Shown here: positions 20,323-45,019 of the stretch, piece by piece
How positions within the stretch are numbered: the first letter of the stretch is position 1
Layout: each line of letters begins with the position of its first letter
Virus record (IMG/VR): IMGVR_UViG_3300006750_000004
Coordinates: 1-64,000 of that record
Source of the DNA: a virus
Strand: one strand, 5' to 3'
DNA length: 64,000 bases
The notes under the pieces: generated by a model
Databases searched by the model: none
What the model was told of the DNA's origin: nothing
Seen by the model: only the letters and a program-made list of their open reading frames with translations
Program-made: the position numbers and the translations under genes

Positions 20323-20342
20323 CCCCTCCAGGACTAAGTACC

Positions 20343-23126: not shown

Positions 23127-23139
23127 CCGGAGTGCTTAA

Positions 23140-28570: not shown

Positions 28571-29003
28571 CGATCCTTCCGCTCGGCCGGTTAGTATCAT
28601 CCTCGTACCGCACCACATCATCTAAATGCGGAGTGGATGCTTCGATAGCCGTGTATGAGGTTTTGGCTACAACGCGGTGCTTGCGTCCGGTCGGGACAGA
28701 CCATCCGTTCCCGACTTTGTAAACCCGTGATTGGAGTACACCGTCTGCATCTTCTAGTAGAACTTCGGCCTCTCCTTCGATCACGAAGTTGGTCTCGTAC
28801 TTGTCTTCGTGCGATTGTAAGCTGCTCTGGTTCCCAGCGTCCATCTGGATGAGCTTCAACACGTAAAATTCATTGATCTCCATCCAGATTTCATAACCCC
28901 AAGGTTTCTTTACCCGGTAGGAACTGACGGTTAACTCATCCGGCTTCTGGTCTGCAATAAGCTGTCCGTAATCGGCTATGGCTTTGGCGATGAGGGGATT
29001 CAC
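28545..29003 (-). CDS. Cupin (mannose-6-phosphate isomerase type II-like)
   Basis: KKPWGYE, SLQSH..K.ET, HR, EASTP.LDDVVR.ED. Confidence 0.85.
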   Translation of the reverse strand: MNPLIAKAIADYGQLIADQKPDELTVSSYRVKKPWGYEIWMEINEFYVLKLIQMDAGNQSSLQSHEDKYETNFVIEGEAEVLLEDADGVLQSRVYKVGNGWSVPTGRKHRVVAKTSYTAIEASTPHLDDVVRYEDDTNRPSGRIDDEHQQED

Positions 29004-30347: not shown

Positions 30348-30404
30348 ACAATGCCTCGACCAATCGTTGTAAATCATTTGGTTCCATACAATGCCTCGAC
30401 CAAT
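30322..30404. repeat. Perfect 40-bp tandem duplication across a gene junction
   Basis: AATCGTTGTAAATCATTTGGTTCCATACAATGCCTCGACC at 30322 and 30362. Confidence 0.95.
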
Positions 30405-31060
30405 TGGACATCTTCAATCGTGTCGATGTCCAGAGACCGTGTTTTAGGCATTGAATATGCCCTTACTCGGCCTTTATAGAAATTCGGGCTTTTCTTAAAT
30501 GAGTCGGTCCACCGCAGGTATACGGCACCGTTGGGGCGGTAAATACCACTATGGTCTTGGGATCGTGTATTTCCTGTTAACCATGGTAGGCTGTGGTCGG
30601 AACAGTGAAGTAAACCATCTGGGTCCAGACACAAGCCTAAAGTTGGTGGGAAATCATAATCAGTAATACTTATTACGCCATCTATATTCTTATCAAGCAT
30701 GGCGATAGCACATTCGATGTCTTCTGTGCTTCGTAGCGGGCAAGTGGGAAGGAACTGGCCTACATAATCATATTCAGCAGCCATCCCTCTGTCAATAATA
30801 GCGTGAGTAAGAGAATCTAGGACGGTTGACTTGTCTGTGACAGTGCTGGCTGGCAGCATAAAAATCTCTGGATTGCAAGAATGCTTCTCAGCTATTTTGG
30901 TAATTTTATCATCATCAGTAGCTATGACGATCTTGTCGAATATTGGTGCCAAGGTATCGAGTGTGTGATGAATAAGGGGTCTGCCAAGTAGTGTGATAAT
31001 ATTCTTGTTTCGCAGCCTTTTCGATCCACCACGTGCTGGGACAAATGCTACACCCTTCAT
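30374..31060 (-). CDS. Acylneuraminate/ulosonate cytidylyltransferase (NeuA-like)
   Basis: PARGGSKRL.NKN, TDD, PTCPLR, NGAVY, SLDIDT.ED. Confidence 0.9.
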   Translation of the reverse strand: MKGVAFVPARGGSKRLRNKNIITLLGRPLIHHTLDTLAPIFDKIVIATDDDKITKIAEKHSCNPEIFMLPASTVTDKSTVLDSLTHAIIDRGMAAEYDYVGQFLPTCPLRSTEDIECAIAMLDKNIDGVISITDYDFPPTLGLCLDPDGLLHCSDHSLPWLTGNTRSQDHSGIYRPNGAVYLRWTDSFKKSPNFYKGRVRAYSMPKTRSLDIDTIEDVQLVEALYGTK

Positions 31061-31830
31061 GAGATCGCTACCTCACTGATTTTATCGAAGCGATTGAGTA
31101 GTCTAGCCCAATCTTTTAGCGGAATCTGGCAATCCGCGTCTGAGTAGGCTTGTGACGGATTTGGATGGACTTCAGCGAAGATGCCGGTGTATCCGAAAAT
31201 AGGGGCGGCTAGCATATATTTCATAGCTAATTCTCGGTCACCGCCAGTGAAATCGCCCTTGCGTTGTTGGGTCGAGTGGGTACAATCTAGAAAGACACGG
31301 TCCCCATAATCAGCCATTTCTTCGACAGCACCAAAATCGACGAACAACTTCTCATACCCGTGATTAGAACCACGGTCCGTAATCCAGACTTGTGCGTTGG
31401 GGTTTTGGCTTCTGATTTTCCCGGCGAAGTGTTTGGTGTTTTCTGGACTGACCCATTGGCCCTTCTTGACATGGACGATATCAAAGTGCTTGCCGCATTC
31501 GATAAGCAGGTCTGTTTGACGGCATAAGAAGGCAGGCACCTGGATGACGTCGATTAGGTCTTTGAGTGGCTCTACTTGATGGACTTCGTGGATATCAGTG
31601 GTAAGTCGTAGGTCTGGGAATTTTTCTTTGGCGGCGGCTAGTAATTCGAGTCCCCTTTCCCAACCTGGGCCACGTCGCCCTTGTACGGCGGATCTGTTGG
31701 CTTTGTCGAATGATGCTTTGTAGTACCAGTTACGGCCTTGCATCAGGTTGTTGAGTTTTTCAGCTGTGTTTAGATAGAGACTTTTTGTCTCCATTCCGCA
31801 TGGTCCGACTATCCATACAATATCCAGCAT
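31057..31830 (-). CDS. kdsA: KDO8P synthase (metal-dependent type)
   Basis: GPC..E, KASFDKANRS, TDIHE, QVPAFLCRQTDL, KKGQ, D.THS, EVHP.P..A.SD. Confidence 0.92.
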   Translation of the reverse strand: MLDIVWIVGPCGMETKSLYLNTAEKLNNLMQGRNWYYKASFDKANRSAVQGRRGPGWERGLELLAAAKEKFPDLRLTTDIHEVHQVEPLKDLIDVIQVPAFLCRQTDLLIECGKHFDIVHVKKGQWVSPENTKHFAGKIRSQNPNAQVWITDRGSNHGYEKLFVDFGAVEEMADYGDRVFLDCTHSTQQRKGDFTGGDRELAMKYMLAAPIFGYTGIFAEVHPNPSQAYSDADCQIPLKDWARLLNRFDKISEVAIS

Positions 31831-33590
31831 TAAAGACCTTCTTTATCCAGTCTGGATTCGATCAGCTGTAGAACTGCTTTGACTGCTTTGACGTGTTCTG
31901 GTTTCGCTTCACCAAATGATATCCTGTTGGTTGTTTTTAGTAGACCTTTTACGTTCAAGGCAATTTGGAGTGCGCGGTGCCATCCAATAGGTCCGAAGAC
32001 CGCGAATAGTGGGTCTTCGTACCGTTCTACTATTTTGTGGGCGGTGGTGGTGAGACCTTCTTTCATGGCGATGTAGAAGGCTTCTTCGATCTGTGGATAA
32101 ATATTGCCGATTCCACCGAGGAAATTTTGGGCTCCGGCGGGTTGAGTAAGCAAGTATCGACGACAACTACCTCCCGCCGGGAAGATGAGAAATTTGTGAT
32201 CAGCTTGGCGGCTTACTTTATAGGCCATTTCATAGGAGGTGCTCTCCTCCTTCATGCCGATAATATTATCGTGTTTCTTGAGTTTGGCGACAATCTCGGG
32301 TGTGAAGTTGTATGTGCCACCGGCTACCGCGTTCCGCATGAACATGCCGTGAACCATTACTGGCACTTTTAGTTTGTCGGCTGCCCTGAAGAAATAACCA
32401 CACACATCCTCGTCTGAGTAGTACCTGTCTGGGTACATGAGCATAACAGCGTCGGGTTCCCAACTATTGGCGTGGTCAATCCATCTACTTAATAATTTAT
32501 CTGGAACCGGGGGTAGCCCGAGAATCTTTGTACCTTGGAATTGGTTGCACGAGGCGTTGAGTGCCTCTATTTCATGGTTCGTCAACATGTTGAAGCGGGC
32601 TGTGCCAGCTGTCACCAAGATGATTTTAGCACCGTTCTTATGTAGGTGTTCCAGATAATTTTCGACGGCTACTTGGTCGAAGTCGCCTTGGCTGTCGAAT
32701 GCTGGTGGAATTGGGTAGATGACACCGCTGGTGAATTTTTCTGGGAACATTTCTCGTTTGATTCTGTCTGATATCGTCCAGGGGTATTGTTCGTGCTCGT
32801 AATAGTTGAATAATTCGTCGATTCCTGGTGGGATTTGTAGTTCGTCGGATTCTAGGACTGCGGGGATGTTGTTGGGTTTGCGGTCGTTGTCTGGTCGGAC
32901 GCATATTTTGGCGTCGATGAGTTTTTCGAGTGGTTTTTTATACGTACTAAAATACTTACTGTGCATGTCATACCCGTAGAATTGGGCTTTCATCGCCACT
33001 TTCTCGAGGTCCATTATTGAGTAGTGATGGCGGATTCCGATTTCTTTGGGTACGGGCCGGATGTCTTTTGGTGCACTACCGCGAATGATTTGTGGTCGGT
33101 GGATTAGGACCAGGCCCTGTTTTTTCTTGTGGATTCTGGCCGGTCTGTTCCAGAATTTCTTGGTGCCATCTTTAGCCACCACTACGTTGTAATATCTATA
33201 GTAATAATATTCGTGGTGTGAATAATTGAGTGTTTGAGTTTTGTCGATGTAAGCTCTTGTACCCTCGATACATTCTGGGGTATAGAATTCATCTGCATCG
33301 ATGTGCCAAACATAATCACCTGTGGCTTTGTTATAATAGGCAGCCACCATAGCATCCTTACCGACCCATGTATCTTTAGTGATAAGGATAATTTTATTAT
33401 CTGGATCTGGGAAGTCCCTGATTATCTGTAGGGTCTTATCCCTGGTCTTGGGGAACTTGTCACCTAGTTCTGTCGATCGCCCTTCGACTATAATTATTTC
33501 ATAGGCGTGGGGGTACAGATTAATAAGCTGTTGACGTATCAGATATGCCTCATTATAACAAATGAGACAAAATGAAATTCGCATTTTCAT
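31830..33590 (-). CDS. GT2-like glycosyltransferase fused to a DHDPS/NAL-family class I aldolase
   Basis: ICYNE, HIDADEFY, HHY; then PIPPAFD..G..D, NIIGMKEES. Confidence 0.8.
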   Translation of the reverse strand: MKMRISFCLICYNEAYLIRQQLINLYPHAYEIIIVEGRSTELGDKFPKTRDKTLQIIRDFPDPDNKIILITKDTWVGKDAMVAAYYNKATGDYVWHIDADEFYTPECIEGTRAYIDKTQTLNYSHHEYYYYRYYNVVVAKDGTKKFWNRPARIHKKKQGLVLIHRPQIIRGSAPKDIRPVPKEIGIRHHYSIMDLEKVAMKAQFYGYDMHSKYFSTYKKPLEKLIDAKICVRPDNDRKPNNIPAVLESDELQIPPGIDELFNYYEHEQYPWTISDRIKREMFPEKFTSGVIYPIPPAFDSQGDFDQVAVENYLEHLHKNGAKIILVTAGTARFNMLTNHEIEALNASCNQFQGTKILGLPPVPDKLLSRWIDHANSWEPDAVMLMYPDRYYSDEDVCGYFFRAADKLKVPVMVHGMFMRNAVAGGTYNFTPEIVAKLKKHDNIIGMKEESTSYEMAYKVSRQADHKFLIFPAGGSCRRYLLTQPAGAQNFLGGIGNIYPQIEEAFYIAMKEGLTTTAHKIVERYEDPLFAVFGPIGWHRALQIALNVKGLLKTTNRISFGEAKPEHVKAVKAVLQLIESRLDKEGL

Positions 33591-33598: not shown

Positions 33599-34042
33599 TT
33601 AAGTGGACTGACTAGTTGCCCATTTCCTAAGTAGCCTCATGATGCGGTTTCGTTCACGACGGGCCGCGATATCAGTACAAAAGAGACTAGATTCGGGCAT
33701 CCATTCATCGTCAGAGTTTGAATAGAAAAATTCCGCAGTGTCCCGGCTTCGTATAACCTCTACAATAGTAAATGGTTCGACTCGGAATTCTGAGGTCAAT
33801 AAAGACGTCATAGCCGCAAAGTCCATGTGTTGCAATTTGGGCAACTTAGCTTTGCTGTTCCAAAGTCTCTGGTATGGACCGCGTTCATAGAGGACTTTTG
33901 GATGATAACTTACCATCCATTTTTGTTCTTCATCTAAGTCCGGAATGGAGTCTTTGTTGCGAAAGACTACCCACCAGACTGTTTCACCTGTCTTATAGCG
34001 AGACAACTCTAGGACCGATGAAATCCGTTCTTTTCGAACCAT
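33599..34042 (-). CDS. Hypothetical protein
   Basis: 147-aa ORF in a minus-strand run. Confidence 0.6.
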   Translation of the reverse strand: MVRKERISSVLELSRYKTGETVWWVVFRNKDSIPDLDEEQKWMVSYHPKVLYERGPYQRLWNSKAKLPKLQHMDFAAMTSLLTSEFRVEPFTIVEVIRSRDTAEFFYSNSDDEWMPESSLFCTDIAARRERNRIMRLLRKWATSQST

Positions 34043-34070
34043 TTGGAATGGCCTTGTATGAGCAAGGTTA

Positions 34071-34286
34071 TTATCCGAGAATAACCCTGTTGGTCGCCTG
34101 GCTGATAATATCTTCTGCGATTTTCTTGCTGATTCCTGACGCGACCGCAGTCCAAACCCCGGCCTGGTTTATCTCGATCTGATAATTGCCAGAATTTACA
34201 TTCTGACCAGGCATTGGGATCGCTCGGACTGCAGCAGTACCAGCTGCTTTGATTTTTTGAATTGCTTCGTTAACATTTACAGCCAT
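34071..34286 (-). CDS. Hypothetical protein
   Basis: GGAG SD, 71 aa. Confidence 0.6.
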   Translation of the reverse strand: MAVNVNEAIQKIKAAGTAAVRAIPMPGQNVNSGNYQIEINQAGVWTAVASGISKKIAEDIISQATNRVILG

Positions 34287-34324: not shown

Positions 34325-35155
34325 CTATTCTATAAGGGCATCGAACGCGTCCAAAGCCATCTGAAACGTCTCCTGTTTTGTGTGGGCGTCTCCATGGCGT
34401 CTTCCGAAGGACGGTTCCATTATATACCAGCCATTGTACCCGTTGCCGATGGCGTCTTTTACAGTATAGTCAATCTTGGAGTCCCCAAAACCTGCTGGTT
34501 TGAATCCTTTACCTATCTTCAAATCCCGAACATCGATCGCAGCAACACTGGATTTCAATAATGTCCAATATTTTACGAATGGGTTTTGATTCTTCCTTAG
34601 GATAAATTGGGCTGGGTCATAAAGCAATTTCCAACGTTTGTGTTTGCGGAATTGGTTGGCTAATGCACTAGGTGTATCAAAATATGAATCAAATGTGATT
34701 TCGCACACAGGAGTTATATTGGCAGATATAGCTTTGGCAGATATCTTGCTCATCCACTCATCAACGAGGGATGTACATTCTTGCTGACATTGTTTACCAA
34801 TACCAATTCTGACCATTGGGGCCTTAAAATAGGCTGCCAGATTGAAGATATGATCAATCCGTGATTCACTGATTCGACTCAGGTTATTTGCCGCCTCGTC
34901 GCCCAAATCGCTGGCGATCATAATTACTGTCATATCCTTGTCGGTTATGATCTTACGTAATTTCTGGCAGGCGGTATCGGCGAGTGTGCCGATATTCCCG
35001 GTCCAGATATGTTTTAGAGCTATGTAGTGAATTCCGAAACCTAGGAGGTTGTCGCAGGAGATGCTAGGGTCTTCTCCGGCTTCCTCAAGATAAGAGGCGA
35101 CTCGGAGAGTATCACGCACTCTTCCTGGTTTAGTCGGTATTGTTTGCTTATCCAT
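34325..35155 (-). CDS. Xylose-isomerase-like TIM-barrel sugar isomerase/epimerase
   Basis: YDPAQF, DVRD, GFGD, GYNGWYIMEP. Confidence 0.75.
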   Translation of the reverse strand: MDKQTIPTKPGRVRDTLRVASYLEEAGEDPSISCDNLLGFGIHYIALKHIWTGNIGTLADTACQKLRKIITDKDMTVIMIASDLGDEAANNLSRISESRIDHIFNLAAYFKAPMVRIGIGKQCQQECTSLVDEWMSKISAKAISANITPVCEITFDSYFDTPSALANQFRKHKRWKLLYDPAQFILRKNQNPFVKYWTLLKSSVAAIDVRDLKIGKGFKPAGFGDSKIDYTVKDAIGNGYNGWYIMEPSFGRRHGDAHTKQETFQMALDAFDALIE

Positions 35156-35260: not shown

Positions 35261-36430
35261 TTAATCCAGGAAGCAAACATGGTTGTTTTGTGGACCGGTT
35301 CCAACAATTGTGACTGGAATACCAGCAATATCTTCAACCATATGTATGAAATCCGTCACCTTTTTAGGTAGTGCACCATATTCGTTGGTGCCATAGCACG
35401 ACCAATCAATATAATTGGCGAAATTCAGAGCTATTTTGTTAGCTCCGTTGACGAGAGCAGCTTCTTTGAGCTGTTTCTTCGAGAACGTGAATACACGTCG
35501 TAATCTCTTGGTAACGGTGGTTAGTTCGCCTTTCATCACTTCTGGCGGGGCGTTTGCCTCTCGTGCTATGTTCTCCCACGATGTTTCTTCGTGGTCGTCG
35601 TAGTGGCCACCAGAGTGTCCAACCGTCTTACCGTCTTCGATGACATTGCCGACACGGATTGGTGCGGGTCTGATTACTAAATAGACGTCACCCATAGCAG
35701 TATGTGGTAAGCCCATGTCCGCCAAGTTCTGAATGGCGGTAGTACCCCGACTAGTGCATTGTGGGTAATGTGAGCCATGATTAATGTCGAGAGAGAACCC
35801 TTGGGCTCCTTCATGTAGGATAGTAACCCCGAAACGTTCCATAAGGACCATCAGCGTTTGTGGCAGGCTCATTCCTTGAACGTAATCAGAAATTTCTGGG
35901 TCGACATTATCAATCTTCTTGCCTATAGCCGATGGCATGTAACCAGATAGGGCATCATAATCTCGAGCAAGTTTAAGTTCCCTCTTACGCATGATTTTAT
36001 CTGCGAGAAAGGACCCACAACCCTGCATTGTGCTGGCTAGGTGTTTAGTACCAGTGGTTAGGTTGCCTTCGGCTTCCTTGTGGGCGTCTGTAATAACTCC
36101 AGCTCGTTCGTGGATTGTGAGTTGATAGCTGGATTCGGTTTCCTGGATCTCTTTATGCATCTGCTCAATGGTGAATGCTGCACTACACCCCACGACGATG
36201 TGTGGATCATATTCTTTGATCCACTTGCGAAGAATAGCTGCAGAGGGAAGAGCTTTTGCTACAAATTCGTCTTTGCCGTTTTCGTGAACGGCGGTATGGC
36301 CCGCATTAGCCATATTCGTAGTTGAGATGATTCCGGGGCGATAACGTGATGCTATGGCGGTACAAATAAGACCTTTGCCGCAACTACCCCAAGATCCGTC
36401 AGTTACTACATTAAATCGCCGGTCTTGCAT
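35261..36430 (-). CDS. purZ: PurZ-type 2-aminoadenylosuccinate synthase (PurA paralog)
   Basis: DGSWGSCGKG (Ser where PurA has the catalytic Asp), NMANAGHT, EGAQGFSL, YPQCTSR, ELTTVTKRLRRVFTFS, LNFANY (NFxN in place of TKxD), GTGP. Confidence 0.82.
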   Translation of the reverse strand: MQDRRFNVVTDGSWGSCGKGLICTAIASRYRPGIISTTNMANAGHTAVHENGKDEFVAKALPSAAILRKWIKEYDPHIVVGCSAAFTIEQMHKEIQETESSYQLTIHERAGVITDAHKEAEGNLTTGTKHLASTMQGCGSFLADKIMRKRELKLARDYDALSGYMPSAIGKKIDNVDPEISDYVQGMSLPQTLMVLMERFGVTILHEGAQGFSLDINHGSHYPQCTSRGTTAIQNLADMGLPHTAMGDVYLVIRPAPIRVGNVIEDGKTVGHSGGHYDDHEETSWENIAREANAPPEVMKGELTTVTKRLRRVFTFSKKQLKEAALVNGANKIALNFANYIDWSCYGTNEYGALPKKVTDFIHMVEDIAGIPVTIVGTGPQNNHVCFLD

Positions 36431-36505: not shown

Positions 36506-36892
36506 CTATGTGGTGCGGAGAGCTCTAGATCCTGGAATATCATAGCCATCTTTATCCCAACCATAGACTTGGGCGGCAACATTTACTTCGTCTAGAGTAT
36601 CGACGGCTGGTTTTAGCAGTTGTTGTAGTGCATCGGGTAGATTCATTATCCGTATGACTATATCAACAACTTTTCCCTCACTGGAGCGAATAAGTTGCTG
36701 CACGGCTACCAAATTCTTCTGTTGCAACAATCTTTTTATACGTTGAGCCAGCAAGACTGCCCGAAGTTCGGTCGCCTTTTGTTCTAGATCACCTTGTAAG
36801 GCATTCCTTTGCGTCTCAAGCCAATCATCGTGTCGTGCGAGTAAGTCGGCATCCTCGCCCAACTCATTGATCTGAGTCAGCAAGTGATTCAT
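36506..36892 (-). CDS. Hypothetical helical protein
   Basis: 128-aa ORF. Confidence 0.6.
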   Translation of the reverse strand: MNHLLTQINELGEDADLLARHDDWLETQRNALQGDLEQKATELRAVLLAQRIKRLLQQKNLVAVQQLIRSSEGKVVDIVIRIMNLPDALQQLLKPAVDTLDEVNVAAQVYGWDKDGYDIPGSRALRTT

Positions 36893-37232
36893 CGATTTTC
36901 CTTACCCAATCTTCTGGTACCCATAGCCTCTTCCCCAGAATTTCGAGATGATAATGTTTGTGTTTACGGCCACAAATGAGGGCAATTTCATTGTGCCAAG
37001 GATGTTCTTCATTTACCAGGAGAACAATTTCTCCTTCTTCCAATACTGGGAGAATGATTGAGAGATTAACTGATCCAGTCTCCTGGATCGTAACGGCGTT
37101 TTCTGAAGTCAGTACGAAGGGTTTGTTGCAATGGTAACAATGGTAGGGACCGGCAAGATCAGTCCTAATAAATTCCCAACCTATGTTTCCACCGCAATGT
37201 GGGCAGGCAATATATTTATTGTGTGGTATCAT
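36864..37232 (-). CDS. Zn-ribbon plus SH3-like hypothetical protein
   Basis: CPHC...CYHC; small beta-rich C-terminus. Confidence 0.6.
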   Translation of the reverse strand: MIPHNKYIACPHCGGNIGWEFIRTDLAGPYHCYHCNKPFVLTSENAVTIQETGSVNLSIILPVLEEGEIVLLVNEEHPWHNEIALICGRKHKHYHLEILGKRLWVPEDWVRKIDESLADSDQ

Positions 37233-37932
37233 TTTCGTTCCCCAGCAATCGCCTTAATTCTTCAGGCTGTTGTTGGAGTTCTTTCACCACATTTTTGGCC
37301 TGCAGAAGATTTACAGCGAAGCGGGCCGCGTCATTGCAAGACGTAATAGTCCTGACGTTATTTATATTGCCACTTAGTTTTATTGGCACCTTAACAATGC
37401 TACGGATTGTTTCCATAATTTTATTATGGATATCAGGATTGGCCTTACTAACCTGAAGTTTCAGTTGAATATCAGTCCTGACATAAGCTGGCGTCCTGAC
37501 ATCCAACAATGCTTCACACAACGCTTTAATATTATCATCATCACGGCCATTAACTCCTAGCACAAAACGGACTTCTAAGGATTCGGCGAGATGAGTCTTG
37601 ATGAATTCTGTGAGTGCTTTAGCTTCGTTGCGGGAATCTATTTTATTCTTTCCGCCAGTCAGTAAGATTTCGAAGCCATCTGCATCTAGGGCATCTGTGG
37701 ATAGCCCACGCAGTTTGTTCTGACCGAAAATTTCCCCTTTAGGCCAATCAATAGGTGTGATTAAAAAATATCGTCCACCCGCCCTACCGCGATAGATCTG
37801 GGCTTCGGATGCTAGATCTGGGTGCACCACTAGTGCTGGTATTTTGTGTTTTGCGGCAAGTTCTGACGCTTCTGCAAGTTCGTTGGCTTGCATGACGTCG
37901 ATTTCAAGTCGATTGAGGATTGCTCCGCCCAT
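37216..37932 (-). CDS. Divergent DeoC-like (deoxyribose-phosphate aldolase fold) protein
   Basis: ALVVHP, TPIDWPKG (cf. TVIGFPLG), DADGFEI (cf. GADEID), YVRT (cf. FVKT), IKLSGNI (cf. IKASGGI). Confidence 0.55.
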   Translation of the reverse strand: MGGAILNRLEIDVMQANELAEASELAAKHKIPALVVHPDLASEAQIYRGRAGGRYFLITPIDWPKGEIFGQNKLRGLSTDALDADGFEILLTGGKNKIDSRNEAKALTEFIKTHLAESLEVRFVLGVNGRDDDNIKALCEALLDVRTPAYVRTDIQLKLQVSKANPDIHNKIMETIRSIVKVPIKLSGNINNVRTITSCNDAARFAVNLLQAKNVVKELQQQPEELRRLLGNENDTTQ

Positions 37933-38338
37933 ATTTAGTATCCAAGTAATCAAGAGTAAATTGAACGGCTTTATCCTCGTCCCTAAATCGGGAAACAATT
38001 GGCCGATTCTGGACTTCTGGTAAGAAATAGAATGTTTTCTTCTCCCCCATGGTGTCTTGTTCTGTAAGCAAGACGATCTTGACACCAAAAGCTCTGGCTA
38101 AACCCAGTTCACAATGTGAACCTTTACGAGCCGGGAACACCATAAAGAATACATCGGCGTTCTTAACACCAGTTTCTTCTGCGAGTCCATACTCTGCCAA
38201 TTCTTCATCGCTATATACTTGTCCGTGTGTGGTCCAATCATAAGTTATCTCACATCCAGCTTTTTTGAACCTGGCTTGGAGTTCGTTTGCTCTTTTAGCA
38301 TTTTGTAGGCTTGTGCCTATATAGATTCTACCACGCAT
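37904..38338 (-). CDS. Nucleoside 2-deoxyribosyltransferase / nucleotide N-hydrolase-like protein
   Basis: IYIG, TYDW, GVKNADVF, GSHCELGLA (catalytic Glu position). Confidence 0.72.
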   Translation of the reverse strand: MRGRIYIGTSLQNAKRANELQARFKKAGCEITYDWTTHGQVYSDEELAEYGLAEETGVKNADVFFMVFPARKGSHCELGLARAFGVKIVLLTEQDTMGEKKTFYFLPEVQNRPIVSRFRDEDKAVQFTLDYLDTKYGRSNPQST

Positions 38339-38400: not shown

Positions 38401-39033
38401 TTAAGCCTTCAAGTATTCATAGCCTGGCCAATCACGCACATCTTGTAATAAGATCTTTATTTTATTGTGCTCAATAGTCTCTCTAGTATATCCAACATTC
38501 CAATCAGGACCGATTTCGGGATCTGGATAAAGATTTAGGCCATCAATATCGACTTCAAGCATAGAACAATTCCCGCACATACAAGGATGGTGTGGACTAC
38601 CCACAGCACTAGGCATATGAGGATCTATAAAGTGACCGAGAAGATTATTAACAGCTTGTTTATCTAAAAACAAATAAATGCGGCCTTTTTCATTGGGTCT
38701 CAGACCTTTGGTTTTGATAGATGATAAATTTTCGGTTGGTGTGATATGGAATGCAAAACCGGTTGTTTGGAATGATTTAGTATCAGTAATCACAATTCGT
38801 AATGAATAATACTTCTTGGGTCCGCCAGAATGATATGGATTTGTTAACTCTTCCGATCCGATTAAATCCCAACCAATTTTGGTTAATTCTTGGCCCAATG
38901 CCTTCGTAGGGGGCGACTCAGAATTAACCCATATGTGGTCATCAAATGAACCCTTGATAAGAACTTTACCAAGATGTCTCTTGATAATTTCTAAAGCATC
39001 ATTCTTAGATTCACAAATACTTCGTAGTTTCAT
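38401..39033 (-). CDS. Tpt1/KptA-like ADP-ribosyltransferase-fold protein
   Basis: FHIT..ENL.SI.TKGLRP, RIYL, LEVD, LYPDP; N-terminal MKLRSICES. Confidence 0.6.
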   Translation of the reverse strand: MKLRSICESKNDALEIIKRHLGKVLIKGSFDDHIWVNSESPPTKALGQELTKIGWDLIGSEELTNPYHSGGPKKYYSLRIVITDTKSFQTTGFAFHITPTENLSSIKTKGLRPNEKGRIYLFLDKQAVNNLLGHFIDPHMPSAVGSPHHPCMCGNCSMLEVDIDGLNLYPDPEIGPDWNVGYTRETIEHNKIKILLQDVRDWPGYEYLKA

Positions 39034-39036: not shown

Positions 39037-39996
39037 TTACAGCTTCGCTGCATGTTCCAAGATTGCGTCAACGTTTTTATGGCTCATTTTACCAAACTCG
39101 TTGACAAATCCCCAAGGATTATACTCTGTACAGAAAGTAAATTTTGCACGTTCATCTGGGGATAAGATCTTGGCGGCTGTGTCGTAGTGTTCTGCTTCTT
39201 TCTGGAACCTGTCCGCTCGGTTCTTTGGTTCTACATCGGGATTATCACCGTAGAAGTGTAGTTTCCCGTCTAGACCGTCTGGGTTCATATCACATCCGAA
39301 AATATAGATGTGTTCATATCCCATCCAGAGAGCAATTTGCATCGAAGCATAGACTGAGGACCGTCCGATATGCAATCCTTTGGACATATCGCGACTGAAG
39401 CCGTTGCCGCCCAAATTCTTGAACTGCATGGACTTCTCTTTTTGCTTTTTAATGGCTGTGCTATTAAAAACAAAGCCATTAAAATTTGTCCATAGGTCCT
39501 CATGTCTCCGCATTTGAGACCCGTCAAAGAATGACCAATGTGATGTTGGCCAAAGTCTTGCGTCTGGTTTGTTGATCGACAGAGTGTCGACGTTGGGAAT
39601 ATTGCGGAGTTTCTCGAGTGGTGTTTCGTTTAGAGATGGCCCATTGCCGACGATGATTAGGATTTTTCCTTTACCAATATTCCTGATCGAGTTGACTTTG
39701 GCAATAGATTGGGGGGATACACCTCTAGAGACGTATCGAACTTTGGTCGCTCGCCTGATACCACGGCGGTTTTTGTGGACTACCGCTCCTGATGGTGGTA
39801 TTTGTTGTTGTGGTGGCTGTGCTTGTTGTTTAGCACTTTGCGACCGGATGCGGACTTGCTTCAGTTGCTTTGGTTCAGCAACTTTGGGCTTGCCAACACT
39901 TTTGACTACTACTTTGACGGTCGGGGGGACCCGAACGATGGCCCTTTTACGGACTAGTTGTGGTTTTAGTCGAGATGTTACAACTTGTTTTACCAC
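39037..39996 (-). CDS. Maf/DUF115 (MptE-like) glycosyltransferase-like protein with basic N-terminal extension
   Basis: IIVGNGPSL, SINK, SSVYASMQIALWMGYEHIYIFGCD, HFY. Confidence 0.7.
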   Translation of the reverse strand: MVKQVVTSRLKPQLVRKRAIVRVPPTVKVVVKSVGKPKVAEPKQLKQVRIRSQSAKQQAQPPQQQIPPSGAVVHKNRRGIRRATKVRYVSRGVSPQSIAKVNSIRNIGKGKILIIVGNGPSLNETPLEKLRNIPNVDTLSINKPDARLWPTSHWSFFDGSQMRRHEDLWTNFNGFVFNSTAIKKQKEKSMQFKNLGGNGFSRDMSKGLHIGRSSVYASMQIALWMGYEHIYIFGCDMNPDGLDGKLHFYGDNPDVEPKNRADRFQKEAEHYDTAAKILSPDERAKFTFCTEYNPWGFVNEFGKMSHKNVDAILEHAAKL

Positions 39997-40213
39997 GGCT
40001 TGTCTGCAATAATTGTTGCAGAAGCGTTGGGAGGTAAGCCGCCAGTCGGCTTGGCTCTCCTAACTTCATGAAACATGTTATTGTAGATTCGCCTTCAGTG
40101 GCTGTGTCTGGGTCTAAGAGCAAGACGAGTGCCTCTTGATGCTCTCCCAGAAGTGCTCGAACTGATTCTGATGGCTGGTTAGCCTGTCCCTCCGTGGGTT
40201 TTTGATCTTTCAT
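39947..40213 (-). CDS. Hypothetical protein
   Basis: 88-aa ORF. Confidence 0.45.
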   Translation of the reverse strand: MKDQKPTEGQANQPSESVRALLGEHQEALVLLLDPDTATEGESTITCFMKLGEPSRLAAYLPTLLQQLLQTSRGKTSCNISTKTTTSP

Positions 40214-40369
40214 TGGAGGAACCCTCTAGTGTTATCATTGATCTCTTCTCCTACATCTATAATACGTTTGCTAGTATTCCCACCAACATGTCATATTAGA
40301 GGGTTGGTGTCCGTGAGAGGTTCTGATGTCATAGACAAAGCATACTCTATAGATCTTGACAGAAAGATT

Positions 40370-41152
40370 TCAACGTGTTCTAATTGGGCGTCGTGTCGGC
40401 GTACGTAGAGACCTTTGCGAATCGGGGAGAGTGCCCGCTTGGGCAGCTTCAAGCAATCTTGCTTGCCCCTGTTTTCTATTAGACCGCCGATTCATAATTG
40501 AATACATACAGCGGTGAATTGTCGTGGTGAGAAGGTTAAAAACGGGTGCTTTGCCCGGAATATACACAAGCTTTCCTTTAACAAGCTTGTTGGTAACTTG
40601 CAAAAGGGCCTCGTTGGCAAGATCCAACCGCTCTTCATCTGTAGGTTGCTTAAACTTCATTGCGATCCCTTGGCACATTTTATCGATGTCTCTCAACATC
40701 GCATGCCAGGACACCTCTTCTGGAACCTCTCGCACGTACCCGTTCACTTCGATATGTGGGAGTGTCACATGTTGATTCAACGGGTTCTCCAAATTATGCA
40801 CCCACGAATCCGAAAGGAGATGCAACTCACTGACCAGGGATTCTATTTCGATCGGTTTATGATGACCATCAATGAACACAGTCCCCGAAGATTGCGGAAC
40901 ACCACTATAACTGCTCAAGTATACTGGATGCCCCAAAGCAATGCAATGGGCTCTTGTCGGATACGACGGGTCCAAAAGCGGTATCCCACGACGACAAATC
41001 TCTGTGTCGTCATCCCGTCTAACGGTGCCAATCACCTTTGTCCACAGCACCCCCGCCTTCCGGAAAGCCTCCAGTGTTGGTACGGACGAAGACAGCAACC
41101 AGTTAAACCAGTTCTGTTCCAAAATCTTGGTGTCGCAATATTGACTCATCAT
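40370..41152 (-). CDS. Sigma-factor-like protein (region 2 only; gp55-like)
   Basis: IAMKF...RLDLANEALLQV...YIPGKAPVFNLLTTTIHRCMYSIM resembles sigma regions 2.2-2.4. Confidence 0.5.
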   Translation of the reverse strand: MMSQYCDTKILEQNWFNWLLSSSVPTLEAFRKAGVLWTKVIGTVRRDDDTEICRRGIPLLDPSYPTRAHCIALGHPVYLSSYSGVPQSSGTVFIDGHHKPIEIESLVSELHLLSDSWVHNLENPLNQHVTLPHIEVNGYVREVPEEVSWHAMLRDIDKMCQGIAMKFKQPTDEERLDLANEALLQVTNKLVKGKLVYIPGKAPVFNLLTTTIHRCMYSIMNRRSNRKQGQARLLEAAQAGTLPDSQRSLRTPTRRPIRTR

Positions 41153-41277
41153 ATCCCTTTTGTAACAAGATTACCGGATGGTTCTCCCCACAATACGGAT
41201 CTATCAGTGGGGCGTTCCAATAACTATCATGACAAGTGCAACGTTTCAAGGACGTTTTATCCCAATCGGAGGAATTC

Positions 41278-42591
41278 ATGGCACTCGTACGCCAAATGCC
41301 GGAACTTTATCTTAGAGGTTCACTCGCAAATGTGACCATGGTCAACCTGACACCTGACGAAAAGCAACACGTCGAGTTTATTGTTGATTACGTCGCCAAG
41401 CACCCAGGAATGTCACGGCACCGAGCCGGGATTATGGAAGAGCTTGGAAACACGATTGGAGGCGACTACGCCAGCGACAAACGCTGCGGAGAAGCCGAAT
41501 TCCAAATCGCCATCTGGAAGGCCACGGTGGAACTCTACCACCACCGACAATATACCTTCTGCTGCAAAGCCTGTGGTTCCAACTCCTGGATCACTCAACA
41601 AGGCATCTCCCGCCAAATCAATCGCCAAAAATTAGATTGCCCCAACTGTAAACAAGTCCGCGTCACCGACCCAGGTGACACCAACCTCGTGAAGAACACA
41701 TACGTTCCCTTCACAGTCTTCCAGAACAGTTACAAATATTTCACCCCTGTCCAAACAGCTCCTAAATGTGAATCACCAATCTATTATATTCCAGGAGTTA
41801 AGAAATACTTAGACCCCGACAAAATCATCAATTGCGACACGCAGCTAGTCAAATTCTTCGGAGAATTTGTCTGGAATTACTTCCGGCAACAACTCGCAGA
41901 AAACGGCCGCAAAGAACACCGTAAAGAGCCCCAAAAAATCTGTGGACGGGCCGACGAAATTATCACGGAAGAGCTGTTATCGCTCTGTCAACGGCTCAAA
42001 ATTGATTATAATCACAGCACAAGAGACCAACCGTCTAATGGTTATTACTCCATCGCCGTTGTTGGTTTACTCACACCACCTGAATTCACAGCAGAGTTCG
42101 CTGTATTACGACAAAAAGCAAAAAATCACTCAGTTGAGATTAATTGCACGCCGTCCGAGATTCGGGTCATCGAAAATTCCGACGCTGGAGAATTAGAAGC
42201 ATACGTCTCAAAGCCGGAACACGTCCTGATTCTCGATAACCACACCAAGAGCGGAGATGATGAGGGAAGCGATTTCACAATCAGCCAACTCTCGTTTCGC
42301 ACTATCGGAGCACAAAAGATGGATCAAGACGACCACGTCGCAACAATCGACGCAACAGACGTAATGATTGCAGTACGAGAATCACTCCCAGAAGGCGATT
42401 GCCAAAGTATCTTCGATATCCAGTGCGGACTCGGAGACATCTACAACGAATTCTCCAACGAATATGGCGATGACCGGCCACGAAAAAACCATATTTCCAA
42501 ATTCCTCGGAATTACGGTACGATCGGTCACCATCTATATGGAGAATATTAGGACCGTCTGCCTAGCCCACGGATTAGTACCACAGAATTAG
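41278..42591 (+). CDS. Sigma-70-like protein with inserted Zn ribbon and C-terminal HTH
   Basis: EFQIAIWKA, CKAC...CPNC, FGEFVWNYFRQ, C-terminal ISKFLGITVRSV; GGAGG SD. Confidence 0.5.
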   Translation: MALVRQMPELYLRGSLANVTMVNLTPDEKQHVEFIVDYVAKHPGMSRHRAGIMEELGNTIGGDYASDKRCGEAEFQIAIWKATVELYHHRQYTFCCKACGSNSWITQQGISRQINRQKLDCPNCKQVRVTDPGDTNLVKNTYVPFTVFQNSYKYFTPVQTAPKCESPIYYIPGVKKYLDPDKIINCDTQLVKFFGEFVWNYFRQQLAENGRKEHRKEPQKICGRADEIITEELLSLCQRLKIDYNHSTRDQPSNGYYSIAVVGLLTPPEFTAEFAVLRQKAKNHSVEINCTPSEIRVIENSDAGELEAYVSKPEHVLILDNHTKSGDDEGSDFTISQLSFRTIGAQKMDQDDHVATIDATDVMIAVRESLPEGDCQSIFDIQCGLGDIYNEFSNEYGDDRPRKNHISKFLGITVRSVTIYMENIRTVCLAHGLVPQN

Positions 42592-43154
42592 GTACCATAT
42601 CCCGAGCGGTTGAATTGTTGCGGCATTCCACGGCCACCATAAGCCTGACCTGGCTCACCAATCGGGCGAGTCCCAGGAGCAAGATCGATATATCCAGCCT
42701 TATGATCACCCAACACTCGCGTAATAAACGCCACAATCCTGCGAGGAGTAGTCTGACGGCGAGCAGTGGACCCTAAAGTCTCTTCTGGCATAATAATACC
42801 AGTCTTGACCTGCCTTGCCAAATCCTGCAGATTATTGTGGTACGTTTCTCCCAGGTACATCCGTTGATTCCCTAGGATAAACATATTCCACCCAAGGACA
42901 GCCTTCCCAATCGACGTGTCGATCTCCTCAGCGTGGGGGACTACCTCAATCTTATTCGACAAAGCCGGGATGACCATCGGCAAATCCTGAATCAACCCAG
43001 GATACATCTGACGATCGAAACTCTCTACGAATCCCTTATCGACAAAATACTTAATCATCAAACGCCGAATAACCTCGGTGTTTGAGACCTTTTTCAACTT
43101 ATCAACTGTGCAGGAGTCCATAGGATATATTTGCTTTACCTGAACCAATTCCAA
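42588..43154 (-). CDS. Hypothetical protein
   Basis: 188-aa ORF. Confidence 0.6.
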   Translation of the reverse strand: MELVQVKQIYPMDSCTVDKLKKVSNTEVIRRLMIKYFVDKGFVESFDRQMYPGLIQDLPMVIPALSNKIEVVPHAEEIDTSIGKAVLGWNMFILGNQRMYLGETYHNNLQDLARQVKTGIIMPEETLGSTARRQTTPRRIVAFITRVLGDHKAGYIDLAPGTRPIGEPGQAYGGRGMPQQFNRSGYGT

Positions 43155-43192
43155 AGGCTAATATCCGTGATTGGTCAAGGCCCACCAAAAAT

Positions 43193-45019
43193 CTACACCA
43201 CTTCGGTAATCTGAGAAAACCGATTGGTCCGAGTGACCCGAAGTTCCTTAGGGAATGTATCATACATCAAGTTCCGGTGAGAGATAATTAGAATTGTCTT
43301 CACCTTGGGAGCCAGATCATTCTTGATGATGTTGATGAGCGAGTCAATGCCGTCATCATCAAGACGGCCATCCACCTCGTCCAGCACTAACATATTGCAC
43401 TGACGACCATACATTTGTTCATGAAAATCGAACATTGCCAACATAAACGCGACATCCGTTCTTTTTCTCTCACCGCCTGATTCGAATTCATATCCCCACA
43501 AATTACTGGTAATACCCAACGCGGGCGTCAATTCAATCTGGACATCAAGCCCGAACACGTCCAGATAATGACGTAGTCGACTATTGATAAATGGAACATG
43601 TTCCTGGAATACAAAACTCTTGATCTTAGTTCGATCATTGTATGCTTTATAAATATAAGCATAATGCCGATTCAAGAAGGTCTCTTGTTCAATGTCCTTC
43701 TCTAGTTTAGTGATATCCTCACCATGCTCCTCTACGGATTTCTTGGTTTCGGCAATAGTAACAGTATGTGGGTTCTTTTCTTTCTGGATTTTAGCGGCGT
43801 CGGCCTTAAATCGGGCCATGGCTTTATCGTGGCGTTCCCACGATGAATGGGTGTCCTTGGCGGCCCGTATGGTTGTCTTGGGCTTTTTATCAGCCAATTG
43901 ACCTTCAGCCAATTTAATGGTTTGGTGGGTTTTAGTGAGATCTTCCTGGTGCTTTGCGAGTTTGGTCTTCTCTTCCACCAATAATTTCTTAATCGGATCA
44001 ATCTTAGAGGCTGTGTGGGCTGTTGGTACTTCCTGTTCGCAGGCATTACATATCTTCCCTGCTTTAGCCCCCCAGGTTTTGATCTTCTTACTTAGTGATT
44101 CAACAGTTCCTTCAATAGTAGCAATTAGACGGGTTGTGACATTGAGTTTGGTCCGAAGTGAGCCGACGTATTCTTCGACTTTTTTAACCACGTCCCATTT
44201 GGCTTGTAATTTTTCCAGGTTTGGTCGCTCGATGGCGTCTCGTCTCTTTTTCTCGTCTATAGCGGTCTGGAGTGATTCAGTGACTCGACGGTCACGGTCT
44301 TTACCATAATTCTCGGATGCGGCGGTTAGACGTTCTATCTCTTGGTTGAGCCGCACGATATTTTGGTTGAGCGTATTAATCTGACCACGTTTAGTGTCGA
44401 TACTACTATCAAGTTGACCACACTTACCTTTAGCATTCTTGGCGTAATAGGCGAACCGGTCTACATGAAGCACTCTTTCAATCGCTTTTTTACGTGTTGA
44501 ATCAGCCATCTCCATCCACGGTTTACCGTATTGGTTGAAGAATATGGATCCACAGAATACTTCCCAATCCAGATTGAATTCTCGATTGAGCTGTTTTTGT
44601 TGATTCTTCTGAGTGGATAAAGTCTCACTCGTCAAAGTGATCTCATTGCCGTCTTTAACGAAGTGTAACTCATTGTGGCCGCCAGATTTTCTAGTCCTGG
44701 TTATAAAGTCGCCGTTGGTGAATTCTAGACGTGCTACACAGTCTTTACCGGTGAAATAATTGACTATTTTATCACCAGGACTGCTAGAGTGCATGGTCCG
44801 ACCAAAAAGGACCCATTGAATAGCATTAACTACCGTAGACTTTCCGGCACCATTGGATTTGGTGATTTGTAGATTGGCACTATTATCGTATAGTGACTTA
44901 TCACCATCCACCACCTCTCCGGTAATGAGGCATTGGCCTAGTTCGTCCAGGTTTAGTACCGTCTCGTAATCGCCATACGACATGAAATTCTGCCAGGCGA
45001 CTGTCTTCAGCTCAAGCAT
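43193..45019 (-). CDS. sbcC: SbcC/Rad50/gp46-like recombination ATPase
   Basis: NFMSYG, Walker A SNGAGKS, Zn-hook CNAC, coiled coils, signature ESGGE, Walker B LVLDE, ISH. Confidence 0.92.
   Translation of the reverse strand: MLELKTVAWQNFMSYGDYETVLNLDELGQCLITGEVVDGDKSLYDNSANLQITKSNGAGKSTVVNAIQWVLFGRTMHSSSPGDKIVNYFTGKDCVARLEFTNGDFITRTRKSGGHNELHFVKDGNEITLTSETLSTQKNQQKQLNREFNLDWEVFCGSIFFNQYGKPWMEMADSTRKKAIERVLHVDRFAYYAKNAKGKCGQLDSSIDTKRGQINTLNQNIVRLNQEIERLTAASENYGKDRDRRVTESLQTAIDEKKRRDAIERPNLEKLQAKWDVVKKVEEYVGSLRTKLNVTTRLIATIEGTVESLSKKIKTWGAKAGKICNACEQEVPTAHTASKIDPIKKLLVEEKTKLAKHQEDLTKTHQTIKLAEGQLADKKPKTTIRAAKDTHSSWERHDKAMARFKADAAKIQKEKNPHTVTIAETKKSVEEHGEDITKLEKDIEQETFLNRHYAYIYKAYNDRTKIKSFVFQEHVPFINSRLRHYLDVFGLDVQIELTPALGITSNLWGYEFESGGERKRTDVAFMLAMFDFHEQMYGRQCNMLVLDEVDGRLDDDGIDSLINIIKNDLAPKVKTILIISHRNLMYDTFPKELRVTRTNRFSQITEVV

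What the first reader, a model, noticed from the sequence alone, without database searches (positions are those of the whole stretch)
35261..36430. ATP-type PurZ in a huge phage: possible 2-aminoadenine (Z) genome
Seen: a PurA-fold protein with GSCGKG rather than GDEGKG, NMANAGHT, ELTTVT and NFANY. Known: PurZ differs from PurA by Ser for catalytic Asp13, Thr for Gly298, and NFxN for the GTP-specifying TKxD; it makes the dZMP precursor from dGMP. Characterised Z-genome phages have much smaller genomes. Oddity: the Arg303-equivalent position (TTVTK-R) is Arg as in PurA, whereas I recall Leu there in phiVC8-type PurZ, so sugar specificity or lineage may be intermediate.
Basis: partly seen in the sequence, partly recalled or inferred. 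Interest (0 to 1): 0.82.

Follow-up and report, generated by a model that had tools for sequence, protein, structure and literature searches.

The report
PurZ gene in marine jumbo phage
An uncultured marine giant phage carries an intact PurZ-type enzyme, which small phages use to replace adenine with 2-aminoadenine (Z) in DNA; here it has different helper genes and a bacterial-type replicase, so Z-DNA is plausible but has not been measured.

Summary
The ORF at 35261-36430 (minus strand, 389 aa) is real. It is a PurZ-clade adenylosuccinate-synthetase homologue. The best solved relative is phiVC8 PurZ (E 1e-35), and every diagnostic PurZ residue is present: Ser16 for PurA Asp13, the TTVT loop, and NFANY. 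All 119 close homologues keep these residues.

In trees it sits in a strongly supported subclade inside PurZ, apart from PurZ0 and E. coli PurA.

The contig is a 95.7-kb fragment (CheckV 26% complete) of a phage whose relatives are 230-440 kb; one is complete at 356 kb.

Arg at the PurA Arg303 position is the majority state among PurZ-like proteins; phiVC8 has Lys, and S-2L and SH-Ab 15497 have Leu.

The usual helpers (DatZ, MazZ, DUF550, DUF5664, DpoZ) are absent. PurZ instead sits in a conserved block with an NDT-superfamily N-glycosidase (DmtZ-like), a DERA-fold protein and a sugar-phosphate isomerase-like protein. The replicase is DnaE-type.

A complete 427-kb relative lacks that block and has a DatZ-like HD protein instead.

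Z-DNA is plausible but unproven. This scan has already found the same thing on several other jumbo-phage genomes.

The parts
35261..36430 (-). PurZ-clade synthetase (N6-succino-2-amino-2'-deoxyadenylate synthase homologue), 389 aa
   Evidence: PF00709 and PHROG 1211 match. The best PDB sequence hit is phiVC8 PurZ at 1e-35. All diagnostic residues are present and invariant in 119 homologues. It sits inside the PurZ group in trees.
37904..38338 (-). NDT-superfamily N-glycosidase-like protein, 144 aa, a candidate analogue of DmtZ
   Evidence: PF05014 matches weakly. A profile of orthologues hits BlsM, BcmB, MilB and NDTs in PDB. The AF2 model has pLDDT 90, and Foldseek returns BcmB, NDT, MilB and DNPH1. 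Y6, E54 and E77 are invariant. hhalign against Ghobes DmtZ gives E 7e-4, with a shared WTxHG motif. It lies next to PurZ in 12 related records.
37216..37932 (-). DERA (DeoC)-fold TIM-barrel protein, 238 aa; chemistry not established
   Evidence: The AF2 model has pLDDT 84.7. All listed top Foldseek PDB hits are deoxyribose-phosphate aldolases or an enzyme designed on that scaffold, with TM 0.65-0.81. There is no sequence hit in PDB or Pfam. It is conserved beside PurZ. Arg152 is invariant where the beta6 Schiff-base Lys is expected; K158 and K185 are invariant.
36864..37232 (-). Small zinc-ribbon protein, 122 aa, conserved in some relatives
   Evidence: Weak zinc-ribbon Pfam hits. Orthologues occur in L003, L005, L006 and L007.
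36506..36892 (-). Conserved 128-aa protein of unknown function directly upstream of PurZ
   Evidence: No family hit. Orthologues occur in 8 related loci at the same position.
34325..35155 (-). Sugar-phosphate isomerase/epimerase-like (xylose-isomerase-like TIM barrel) protein directly downstream of PurZ
   Evidence: PF01261 scores 27.5 bits, below its cut-off. The ESM Atlas gives feature score 0.96 and structure TM 0.85 to PF01261 clusters. Orthologues lie downstream of PurZ in 12 of 13 related loci.
33599..34286 (-). Two small conserved ORFs (71 aa and 147 aa) that end the conserved block
   Evidence: The 147-aa ORF has orthologues in 12 of 13 related loci and the 71-aa ORF in 8. Neither has a family hit.
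39037..45019 (-). Upstream part of the conserved block: MptE/DUF115-like protein, a 260-aa ORF, a 451-aa ORF (plus strand), a 188-aa ORF and an SbcC-like nuclease subunit
   Evidence: Synteny across 13 loci, kept also in G007, whose PurZ is only 34% identical. PHROG 77 SbcC-like at 3e-78. MptE-like match.

Best explanation
The gene encodes an active PurZ-type enzyme. By homology it condenses dGMP with aspartate, using ATP or dATP as phosphate donor, to give N6-succino-2-amino-2'-deoxyadenylate. Host PurB, guanylate kinase and nucleoside-diphosphate kinase would then convert that product to dZTP; no phage copies of PurB or guanylate kinase were found. The phage's DnaE-type replicase would incorporate dZTP opposite T, so the DNA of this marine jumbo phage lineage would contain 2-aminoadenine in place of at least part of its adenine. 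Shown here: the gene is intact, carries every PurZ-specific and catalytic residue, belongs to the PurZ clade, and is under strong constraint in hundreds of large-phage contigs. Inferred: substrate use, the fate of the product, and incorporation into DNA. Adenine removal is proposed to run not through DatZ but through the conserved neighbours. An NDT-superfamily nucleotide N-glycosidase, analogous to DmtZ, would split dAMP into adenine and deoxyribose 5-phosphate. DERA-fold and sugar-phosphate isomerase-like proteins would then handle the sugar phosphate. This last part is the weakest link.
For: Domain and family hits. The closest solved proteins by sequence are phiVC8 PurZ at 1e-35 and S-2L PurZ at 6e-29, against E. 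coli PurA at 1.8e-15. All dGMP-pocket, ATP-pocket and catalytic residues named for S-2L and phiVC8 PurZ in PMC8342488 are kept or conservatively replaced, apart from Gln224 at the variable S-2L Tyr203 position. S16, T304, V306, F337, N339 and Y340 are invariant in 119 homologues of 58-85% identity. A careful ML tree places the window in a 100/98 clade within a 100/100 clade inside the PurZ group (91/66), apart from PurZ0 (100/100). The AU test disfavours joining it to PurZ0 (p 0.042). Homologues sit on contigs of up to 439 kb. Some carry inteins, which is typical of important genes of replication and nucleotide metabolism. An NDT-like gene lies beside PurZ in 12 related records, and a DERA-fold gene is next to PurZ in these records. 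NDT-family enzymes are already tied to dZ phages experimentally (PMC12884076; bioRxiv 10.1101/2025.10.22.683976). A complete 427-kb relative lacks the NDT-like and DERA-fold genes and instead has a DatZ-like HD protein with the Y20/S22 variant that the bioRxiv paper reports on dZ-enriched contigs. Expressing the S-2L Z-cluster in E. coli puts Z into chromosomal DNA (PMC8342488 abstract), so a DnaE-type replicase can use dZTP.
Against: There is no chemical evidence for dZ in this or any related jumbo phage. No DatZ (HD_3, YfbR-like), MazG/MazZ, MazG-like or DUF5664 was found in the fragment or in the complete 356-kb relative, and DUF550, searched only in the fragment, was also absent. Nor was any DpoZ-like PolA found. 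No enzyme that turns dATP into dAMP or dGTP into dGMP has been identified. The dUTPase-family genes look canonical or dCTP-deaminase-like, and NUDIX genes are only generic candidates. The NDT-like protein does not conserve DmtZ's Asp12 or Asn77. The DERA-fold protein seems to have Arg where the Schiff-base Lys should be. The PurZ group node has only moderate support, and no archaeal PurA could be included in the tree.
Confidence: 0.6

Rival explanations
1. The enzyme is an active PurZ, but Z replaces adenine only partly. Alternatively, the pathway mainly remodels the host dNTP pool (draining dGMP and dATP) rather than producing a fully Z-substituted genome.
For: No dedicated dATP triphosphohydrolase or Z-selective polymerase was found in a complete relative. 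S-2L PurZ itself consumes dATP (PMC8342488, section 7). The replicase is a general DnaE type.
Against: All characterised PurZ or PurZ0 phages described in the papers read here are reported as fully substituted. The conserved NDT-like partner suggests active adenine removal. A sister jumbo phage has a DatZ-like gene.
Confidence: 0.2
2. The PurZ-like enzyme and its neighbours (NDT-like, DERA-fold, sugar-phosphate isomerase-like, MptE-like) make a different purine nucleotide or a further modified base. For example, they could act on a ribonucleotide or feed a base-exchange reaction, rather than making plain dZ for DNA.
For: The neighbourhood is unlike any described Z-cluster. The NDT-like protein's closest solved relatives are CMP N-glycosidases of antibiotic pathways. 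The insertion after Val260 is 10 residues longer than in phiVC8.
Against: Every residue that contacts dGMP, aspartate and ATP in solved PurZ structures is conserved, apart from Gln224 at the variable S-2L Tyr203 position. This includes the Val that clashes with a 2'-OH.
Confidence: 0.12
3. It is an ordinary PurA-type auxiliary gene that boosts AMP synthesis during infection.
For: Large phages often carry nucleotide-metabolism genes, and the Pfam name is adenylosuccinate synthetase.
Against: The catalytic Asp13 is replaced by Ser in all 119 homologues. The GTP-specifying Lys and Asp are replaced by Phe and Asn. Its score against E. coli PurA is far lower than against PurZ structures.
Confidence: 0.03

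Closest known systems
PurZ of Vibrio phage phiVC8 (PDB 6FM1/6FKO), cyanophage S-2L (7ODX) and Acinetobacter phage SH-Ab 15497
   Same: They share the fold and Ser in place of PurA Asp13. They share the TTVT aspartate loop, the conserved Val next to C2' and the N-F-x-N/Q-Y adenine pocket. In trees the window protein falls on the PurZ side of the PurZ/PurZ0 split.
   Different: Identity is only 31-33%. The window protein forms a separate, strongly supported subclade found on 100-440 kb contigs. It has an insert of 30-50 residues around positions 150-200 and a longer insertion after Val260. There is no adjacent DatZ, MazZ or DpoZ, and the replicase is DnaE-type rather than PolA or PrimPol.
[quoted passage not shown]
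   Same: An NDT-superfamily protein accompanies the synthetase, and the HD-type DatZ is absent. The NDT-like protein shares the catalytic Tyr, the Glu nucleophile and a WTxHG motif with Ghobes DmtZ.
   Different: The synthetase is PurZ-type, not PurZ0: it has Asn, not Asp, at EcD333, and the tree and AU test separate it. No DutZ-like dUTPase is linked to it. DmtZ's Asp12 and Asn77 are not conserved. The added DERA-fold and isomerase-like partners are not described for PurZ0 phages.
E. coli PurA (adenylosuccinate synthetase)
   Same: Same fold, P-loop, His41, Gln224, Arg143, Thr129 and Arg305 equivalents.
   Different: Asp13, Gly298, Thr300, Lys331 and Asp333 are all replaced. The protein lacks the long C-terminal insertion of bacterial PurA.

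Membership tests
PurZ (2-aminoadenylosuccinate synthetase) | Adenylosuccinate-synthetase fold and domain | tested here: met
   PF00709 at 5e-33; PDB sequence hits to PurZ and PurA structures.
PurZ (2-aminoadenylosuccinate synthetase) | Ser in place of the catalytic Asp13 of PurA | tested here: met
   S16 aligns with EcD13, VpS14 and S-2L S23. It is Ser in 119 of 119 close homologues and 125 of 126 representatives.
PurZ (2-aminoadenylosuccinate synthetase) | TTVT loop (Thr for PurA Gly298, Val for Thr300) over the reactants | tested here: met
   T304-T305-V306-T307 aligns with S-2L T273-T276 and is invariant in close homologues.
PurZ (2-aminoadenylosuccinate synthetase) | ATP-type base pocket (N-F-x-N/Q-Y) instead of the GTP-specifying Lys331 and Asp333 | tested here: met
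   N336, F337, N339 and Y340 are present. The PurZ0 references and E. coli PurA keep Asp at the N339 position.
PurZ (2-aminoadenylosuccinate synthetase) | Conserved Val plus a following insertion that disfavours a 2'-OH (PMC8342488, section 8) | tested here: met
   V260 is invariant. An insertion follows it, 10 residues longer than in phiVC8.
PurZ (2-aminoadenylosuccinate synthetase) | Phylogenetic placement with PurZ, apart from PurZ0 and PurA | tested here: met
   Careful tree: PurZ group 91/66, PurZ0 100/100. AU test p 0.042 against joining it to PurZ0. Support is moderate, and no archaeal PurA was available.
PurZ (2-aminoadenylosuccinate synthetase) | dGMP + Asp + (d)ATP activity, and dZ in virion DNA | not testable with these tools
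   Needs an enzyme assay and nucleoside LC-MS or an equivalent method.
Canonical Z-cluster (purZ with datZ and mazZ or DUF550, often dpoZ) | DatZ-type HD dATPase in the genome | tested here: not met
   No HD_3 or YfbR-like hit in G000-G005, G007 or G008-G012, including the complete G001. Only G006, a sister jumbo phage, has one.
Canonical Z-cluster (purZ with datZ and mazZ or DUF550, often dpoZ) | MazZ, DUF550 or DUF5664 (d)GTP/dATP pyrophosphohydrolase | tested here: not met
   PF03819, PF12643, PF04447 and PF18909 all gave no hit. PF04447 was searched in G000 only. The PF18909 control rang nowhere, so that one search is weak.
Canonical Z-cluster (purZ with datZ and mazZ or DUF550, often dpoZ) | DpoZ (Z-selective family A polymerase with exonuclease domain) | tested here: not met
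   tblastn with the phiVC8 and Bm1 polymerases found nothing. Only a short PolA-like ORF of about 400-450 aa is present, alongside a split DnaE.
DmtZ (dAMP N-hydrolase/transferase of the NDT superfamily) | NDT-superfamily fold with catalytic Tyr and Glu nucleophile | tested here: met
   AF2 pLDDT 90. Foldseek returns BcmB, NDT, MilB and DNPH1. Y6 and E77 are invariant.
DmtZ (dAMP N-hydrolase/transferase of the NDT superfamily) | Asp12 (adenine recognition) and Asn77 of Ghobes DmtZ | tested here: not met
   The aligned columns vary among orthologues. Asn13 and Glu54 are invariant nearby.
DERA/DeoC (class I deoxyribose-phosphate aldolase) | TIM-barrel DERA fold | tested here: met
   All listed top Foldseek hits are DERA or an enzyme designed on the DERA scaffold, TM 0.65-0.81.
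DERA/DeoC (class I deoxyribose-phosphate aldolase) | Schiff-base Lys on strand beta6 and second Lys on beta7 | tested here: inconclusive
   Judged by strand position, beta6 carries invariant Arg152, Lys158 follows in the loop, and beta7 carries invariant Lys185. No residue-level structural alignment was available, and hhalign against E. coli DeoC covered only the N-terminal 47 columns.

The most novel reading that the evidence does not exclude
A widespread lineage of marine and freshwater jumbo phages (about 230-440 kb) that replicate with a DnaE-type polymerase has Z-substituted DNA. It excludes adenine by a route not yet described. A nucleotide N-glycosidase of the NDT superfamily would destroy dAMP, and DERA-fold and sugar-phosphate isomerase-like enzymes would dispose of the deoxyribose phosphate. 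This route would be interchangeable in evolution with a DatZ-type dATPase.
Probability: 0.3. Interest if true: 0.85.

Novelty: new variant of a known kind. Interest (0 to 1): 0.62.

Why it matters
In the phage collection searched here, every isolate with a PurZ or PurZ0 homologue has a genome of 83 kb or less, apart from very weak hits (about 25% identity) in a few larger, mostly unannotated records. Every described Z system uses DatZ/MazZ or DutZ/DmtZ helpers, with a PolA- or PrimPol-type polymerase. If this lineage really uses Z, three things follow. Z-DNA would extend to genomes five to ten times larger. A family C (DnaE) replicase would be copying a Z genome in nature. There would also be a third helper set for clearing adenine. 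The lineage is abundant in metagenomes: hundreds of protein clusters, and this contig alone is found in marine runs of at least 15 studies. Existing dZ-enrichment and PacBio-kinetics methods could therefore test the idea directly, without an isolate.

Tried and rejected
- **Archaeal PurA outgroup.** The single-protein scan found no relative in 185,579 species genomes. A search seeded with Ghobes PurZ0 returned only PurZ0-clade proteins. The tree therefore has only E. coli PurA as outgroup.
- **DNA similarity to known phages.** None was found for the neighbouring SbcC/helicase region.
- **DatZ, DpoZ and primase.** tblastn with the phiVC8 and Bm1 proteins found no hits on the contig.
- **dUTPase-family genes as DutZ candidates.** They are canonical dUTPases (one fused to thymidylate kinase) or dCTP-deaminase-like. 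They are only 27-34% identical to Ghobes DutZ, so they were not claimed as DutZ.
- **DERA-fold protein against E. coli DeoC.** hhalign gave only a weak N-terminal alignment. The profile found no PDB sequence hit.
- **HD-like ORF beside PurZ in G014.** The match is too weak to call.
- **Sequencing runs.** No RNA holder was listed.
- **PurZ structure.** No structure was predicted for PurZ itself, because the sequence match to solved PurZ structures already fixes the fold. Both prediction jobs went to the unannotated neighbours.

Full report
**Observation.** The ORF listing finds a 389-aa ORF at 35261-36430 on the minus strand. The family matches are:
- Pfam Adenylsucc_synt, E 5e-33.
- PHROG 1211, annotated as the PurZ family, E 1.8e-54.

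Against all PDB sequences the hits rank as follows:
- phiVC8 PurZ (6FM1, 6FKO, 6TNH), about 1e-35.
- The short archaeal PurA of Pyrococcus horikoshii, 5e-31.
- S-2L PurZ (7ODX), 6e-29.
- E. coli PurA and the PurZ0-type 7VF6, only about 1e-15.

The start codon is supported by homologues that begin with the same M-x-x-x-(K/R)-F-N-V-V motif.

**Residues.** I aligned the protein with relatives, with PurZ of phiVC8, S-2L, Bm1, SH-Ab 15497 and vB_BpsS-140, with PurZ0 of Ghobes and Joann, and with E. coli PurA. I then mapped the residues named in the literature.
- All shared catalytic residues are kept: the P-loop Lys and the equivalents of EcN38, H41, T129, R143, Q224, T239, V273 and R305.
- All PurZ-specific states are present: S16 for EcD13, T304 for G298, V306 for T300, F337 for K331, N339 for D333, and Y340.
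- The PurZ0 references keep Asp at the N339 position, as PurA does, so the window protein has the PurZ (ATP/dATP) type of pocket. PMC8342488 (sections 7-8) shows that S-2L PurZ uses ATP or dATP. It attributes adenine recognition to the residues equivalent to N336, F337 and N339.

R309 is the EcR303 equivalent. At this position:
- phiVC8 has Lys267, as PMC8342488 also states.
- S-2L and SH-Ab 15497 have Leu.
- Bm1 has Arg.
- 126 PurZ-like cluster representatives have 85 Arg, 36 Lys and 5 Leu.
- All 119 close homologues have Arg.

PMC8342488 assigns deoxy-sugar selection to the conserved Val (V260 here) and the insertion after it. Both are present.

**How large the family is.** The word-indexed search found 556 homologues. 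The best 120 are 58-85% identical and sit on contigs of up to 439 kb. The exhaustive phmmer search found 254 clusters (at 50% identity) with E <= 1e-30 and 1172 with E <= 1e-10. Every diagnostic residue is invariant in the 119 close homologues, which argues for an active enzyme under selection. Several homologues of 750-1197 aa are PurZ genes interrupted by LAGLIDADG/Hint inteins.

**Phylogeny.** A 99-row quick tree and a 44-row careful IQ-TREE run, both rooted on E. coli PurA, give the same picture:
- The window groups with contigs of large phages: 100/98 for 11 rows, inside a 100/100 clade of 17 rows.
- That clade lies inside the PurZ group (91/66), which also holds classical PurZ (phiVC8, S-2L, SH-Ab 15497, Bm1; 99/99) and vB_BpsS-140.
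- PurZ0 is a separate 100/100 clade.
- The AU test disfavours joining the window's clade to PurZ0 (p 0.042).

One limit applies: I could not obtain archaeal PurA sequences, so the root of PurZ is not tested.

**What the DNA is.**
- The window is the first 64 kb of a 95,725-bp IMG/VR virus record. The record is linear and CheckV rates it 26% complete.
- Thirteen IMG/VR contigs carry a PurZ 56-79% identical. Those examined further: G001 is 355,825 bp with direct terminal repeats and rated complete. G002-G005 are 147-275 kb and 41-70% complete.
- Terminase hits occur in G002 and G003.
- On the same contig, outside the window, lie a DnaE-type polymerase split into three ORFs, RecA, a DnaB-like helicase, a gp32-like protein and a short PolA-like ORF.
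- The window's DNA is present in marine metagenomes of at least 15 studies.
- In the isolate-phage collection, close and moderate homologues are all in genomes of 83 kb or less, and none exceeds 36% identity. The only hits in larger records are very weak, about 25% identity.
- My searches of the held library found no paper that links PurZ or 2-aminoadenine to jumbo phages.

**Helper genes.**

| Gene or family sought | Result |
|---|---|
| DatZ-type HD (HD_3, YfbR-like) | Absent from the fragment and from G001-G005 |
| MazG, MazG-like, DUF5664 | Absent from the same records |
| DUF550 | Absent; searched on the fragment only |
| PurB, guanylate kinase | Absent |
| General HD domain | Only in G001, beside DnaE |
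| NUDIX | Present in 4 of 6 records |
| dUTPase family | Canonical, or dCTP-deaminase-like |

PurZ instead sits in a block conserved in order across the 13 loci. The order is: SbcC-like, 188 aa, 451 aa, 260 aa, MptE-like, NDT-like, DERA-fold, zinc ribbon, 128 aa, PurZ, sugar-phosphate isomerase-like, 71 aa, 147 aa.

The three annotatable neighbours are:
- **NDT-like protein (37904-38338).** Y6, E54 and E77 are invariant. Its profile hits the nucleotide N-glycosidases BlsM, BcmB and MilB, and NDTs. Its model (pLDDT 90) matches BcmB, NDT, MilB and DNPH1. It aligns weakly with Ghobes DmtZ, sharing a WTxHG motif.
- **The next ORF (37216-37932).** It has no sequence-level family, but its model (pLDDT 84.7) matches deoxyribose-phosphate aldolases throughout the top of the Foldseek list. 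By strand position, however, invariant Arg152 occupies the place of the Schiff-base Lys. Aldolase chemistry is therefore not established.
- **The downstream ORF (34325-35155).** It is a PF01261 sugar-phosphate isomerase/epimerase-like barrel.

**A phyletic pattern.**
- The NDT-like and DERA-fold genes are present in 12 records: G000-G005, G007 and G008-G012. G007 keeps the gene order although its PurZ is only 34% identical. None of these 12 records has an HD_3 hit.
- G006 is a complete 426,960-bp phage whose PurZ falls in the same 100/100 clade. It has neither gene, but it has an HD_3 protein that aligns with DatZ. That protein carries Tyr and Ser at S-2L DatZ positions 20 and 22. This is the variant that bioRxiv 10.1101/2025.10.22.683976 (section 6) reports on dZ-enriched contigs.
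- This is one contrast only. It fits the idea that the NDT/DERA block and DatZ are alternative ways to remove adenine, in line with the functional convergence described in PMC12884076.

**Reading.**
- Shown: the gene is an intact, constrained PurZ-clade gene in a marine jumbo phage lineage, with a conserved non-canonical neighbourhood.
- Inferred: dGMP- and ATP-dependent synthesis of the dZMP precursor, completion by host PurB and kinases, and incorporation by the DnaE-type replicase. The last step is feasible, because the S-2L Z-cluster puts Z into E. coli DNA (PMC8342488).
- Not shown: any dZ in the DNA, the route from dATP to dAMP, and the activities of the neighbours.

I put about 0.9 on membership of the PurZ family, 0.6 on the full statement that it feeds Z into phage DNA, and about 0.3 on the new adenine-exclusion route.

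**Relation to earlier notes of this scan.** The same kind of finding (PurZ in DnaE-encoding jumbo phages, Z plausible but unproven) has already been followed up on several other genomes. My results were obtained independently and agree with them.

Noticed in passing
P0121, P0122, P0126, P0150 (homologues): PurZ homologues of 750-1197 aa are interrupted by one or two inteins with LAGLIDADG homing endonucleases (Intein_splicing, Hint, LAGLIDADG_2/3).
   Followed up: partly
G006 (IMGVR_UViG_3300028920_000001, 426,960 bp, DTR); L058:867-1550 minus strand: This complete jumbo phage has a PurZ of the same clade. It lacks the NDT-like and DERA-fold genes and carries a DatZ-like HD_3 protein, with Tyr and Ser at S-2L DatZ positions 20 and 22, about 200 kb from purZ.
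   Followed up: partly
G000 68062-76417 (outside the window; L053:4062-12417): The DnaE-type polymerase is split into three ORFs (PHP plus N-terminal part; palm and fingers; HHH C-terminal part) with gaps between them. The same split occurs in relatives. Whether introns, inteins or true subunits separate them was not examined.
   Followed up: no
window 38401-39033 (minus strand): A 210-aa ORF with no family and no orthologue in any of the 13 related loci is inserted between the MptE-like and NDT-like genes of the otherwise conserved block.
   Followed up: no
window about 20000-33590: The sugar-metabolism island next to the block, which includes a GT2-DHDPS fusion at 31830-33590, has almost no counterpart in the related loci. 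It appears specific to this phage.
   Followed up: no
G010:C1:30647-31336 (record of L007): The DERA-fold gene of this relative contains one in-frame TAG.
   Followed up: no
L016:778-1896 (G003): A dUTPase is fused to an N-terminal thymidylate kinase domain (372 aa).
   Followed up: no
PMC12884076, Results (section on dutZ and dmtZ): The paper says PurZ0 and PurZ prefer ATP and GTP 'respectively'. The alignment here shows that PurZ0 keeps the GTP-type Asp while PurZ has Asn or Gln, and PMC8342488 shows S-2L PurZ using ATP or dATP. The order in that sentence therefore seems to be swapped.
   Followed up: partly
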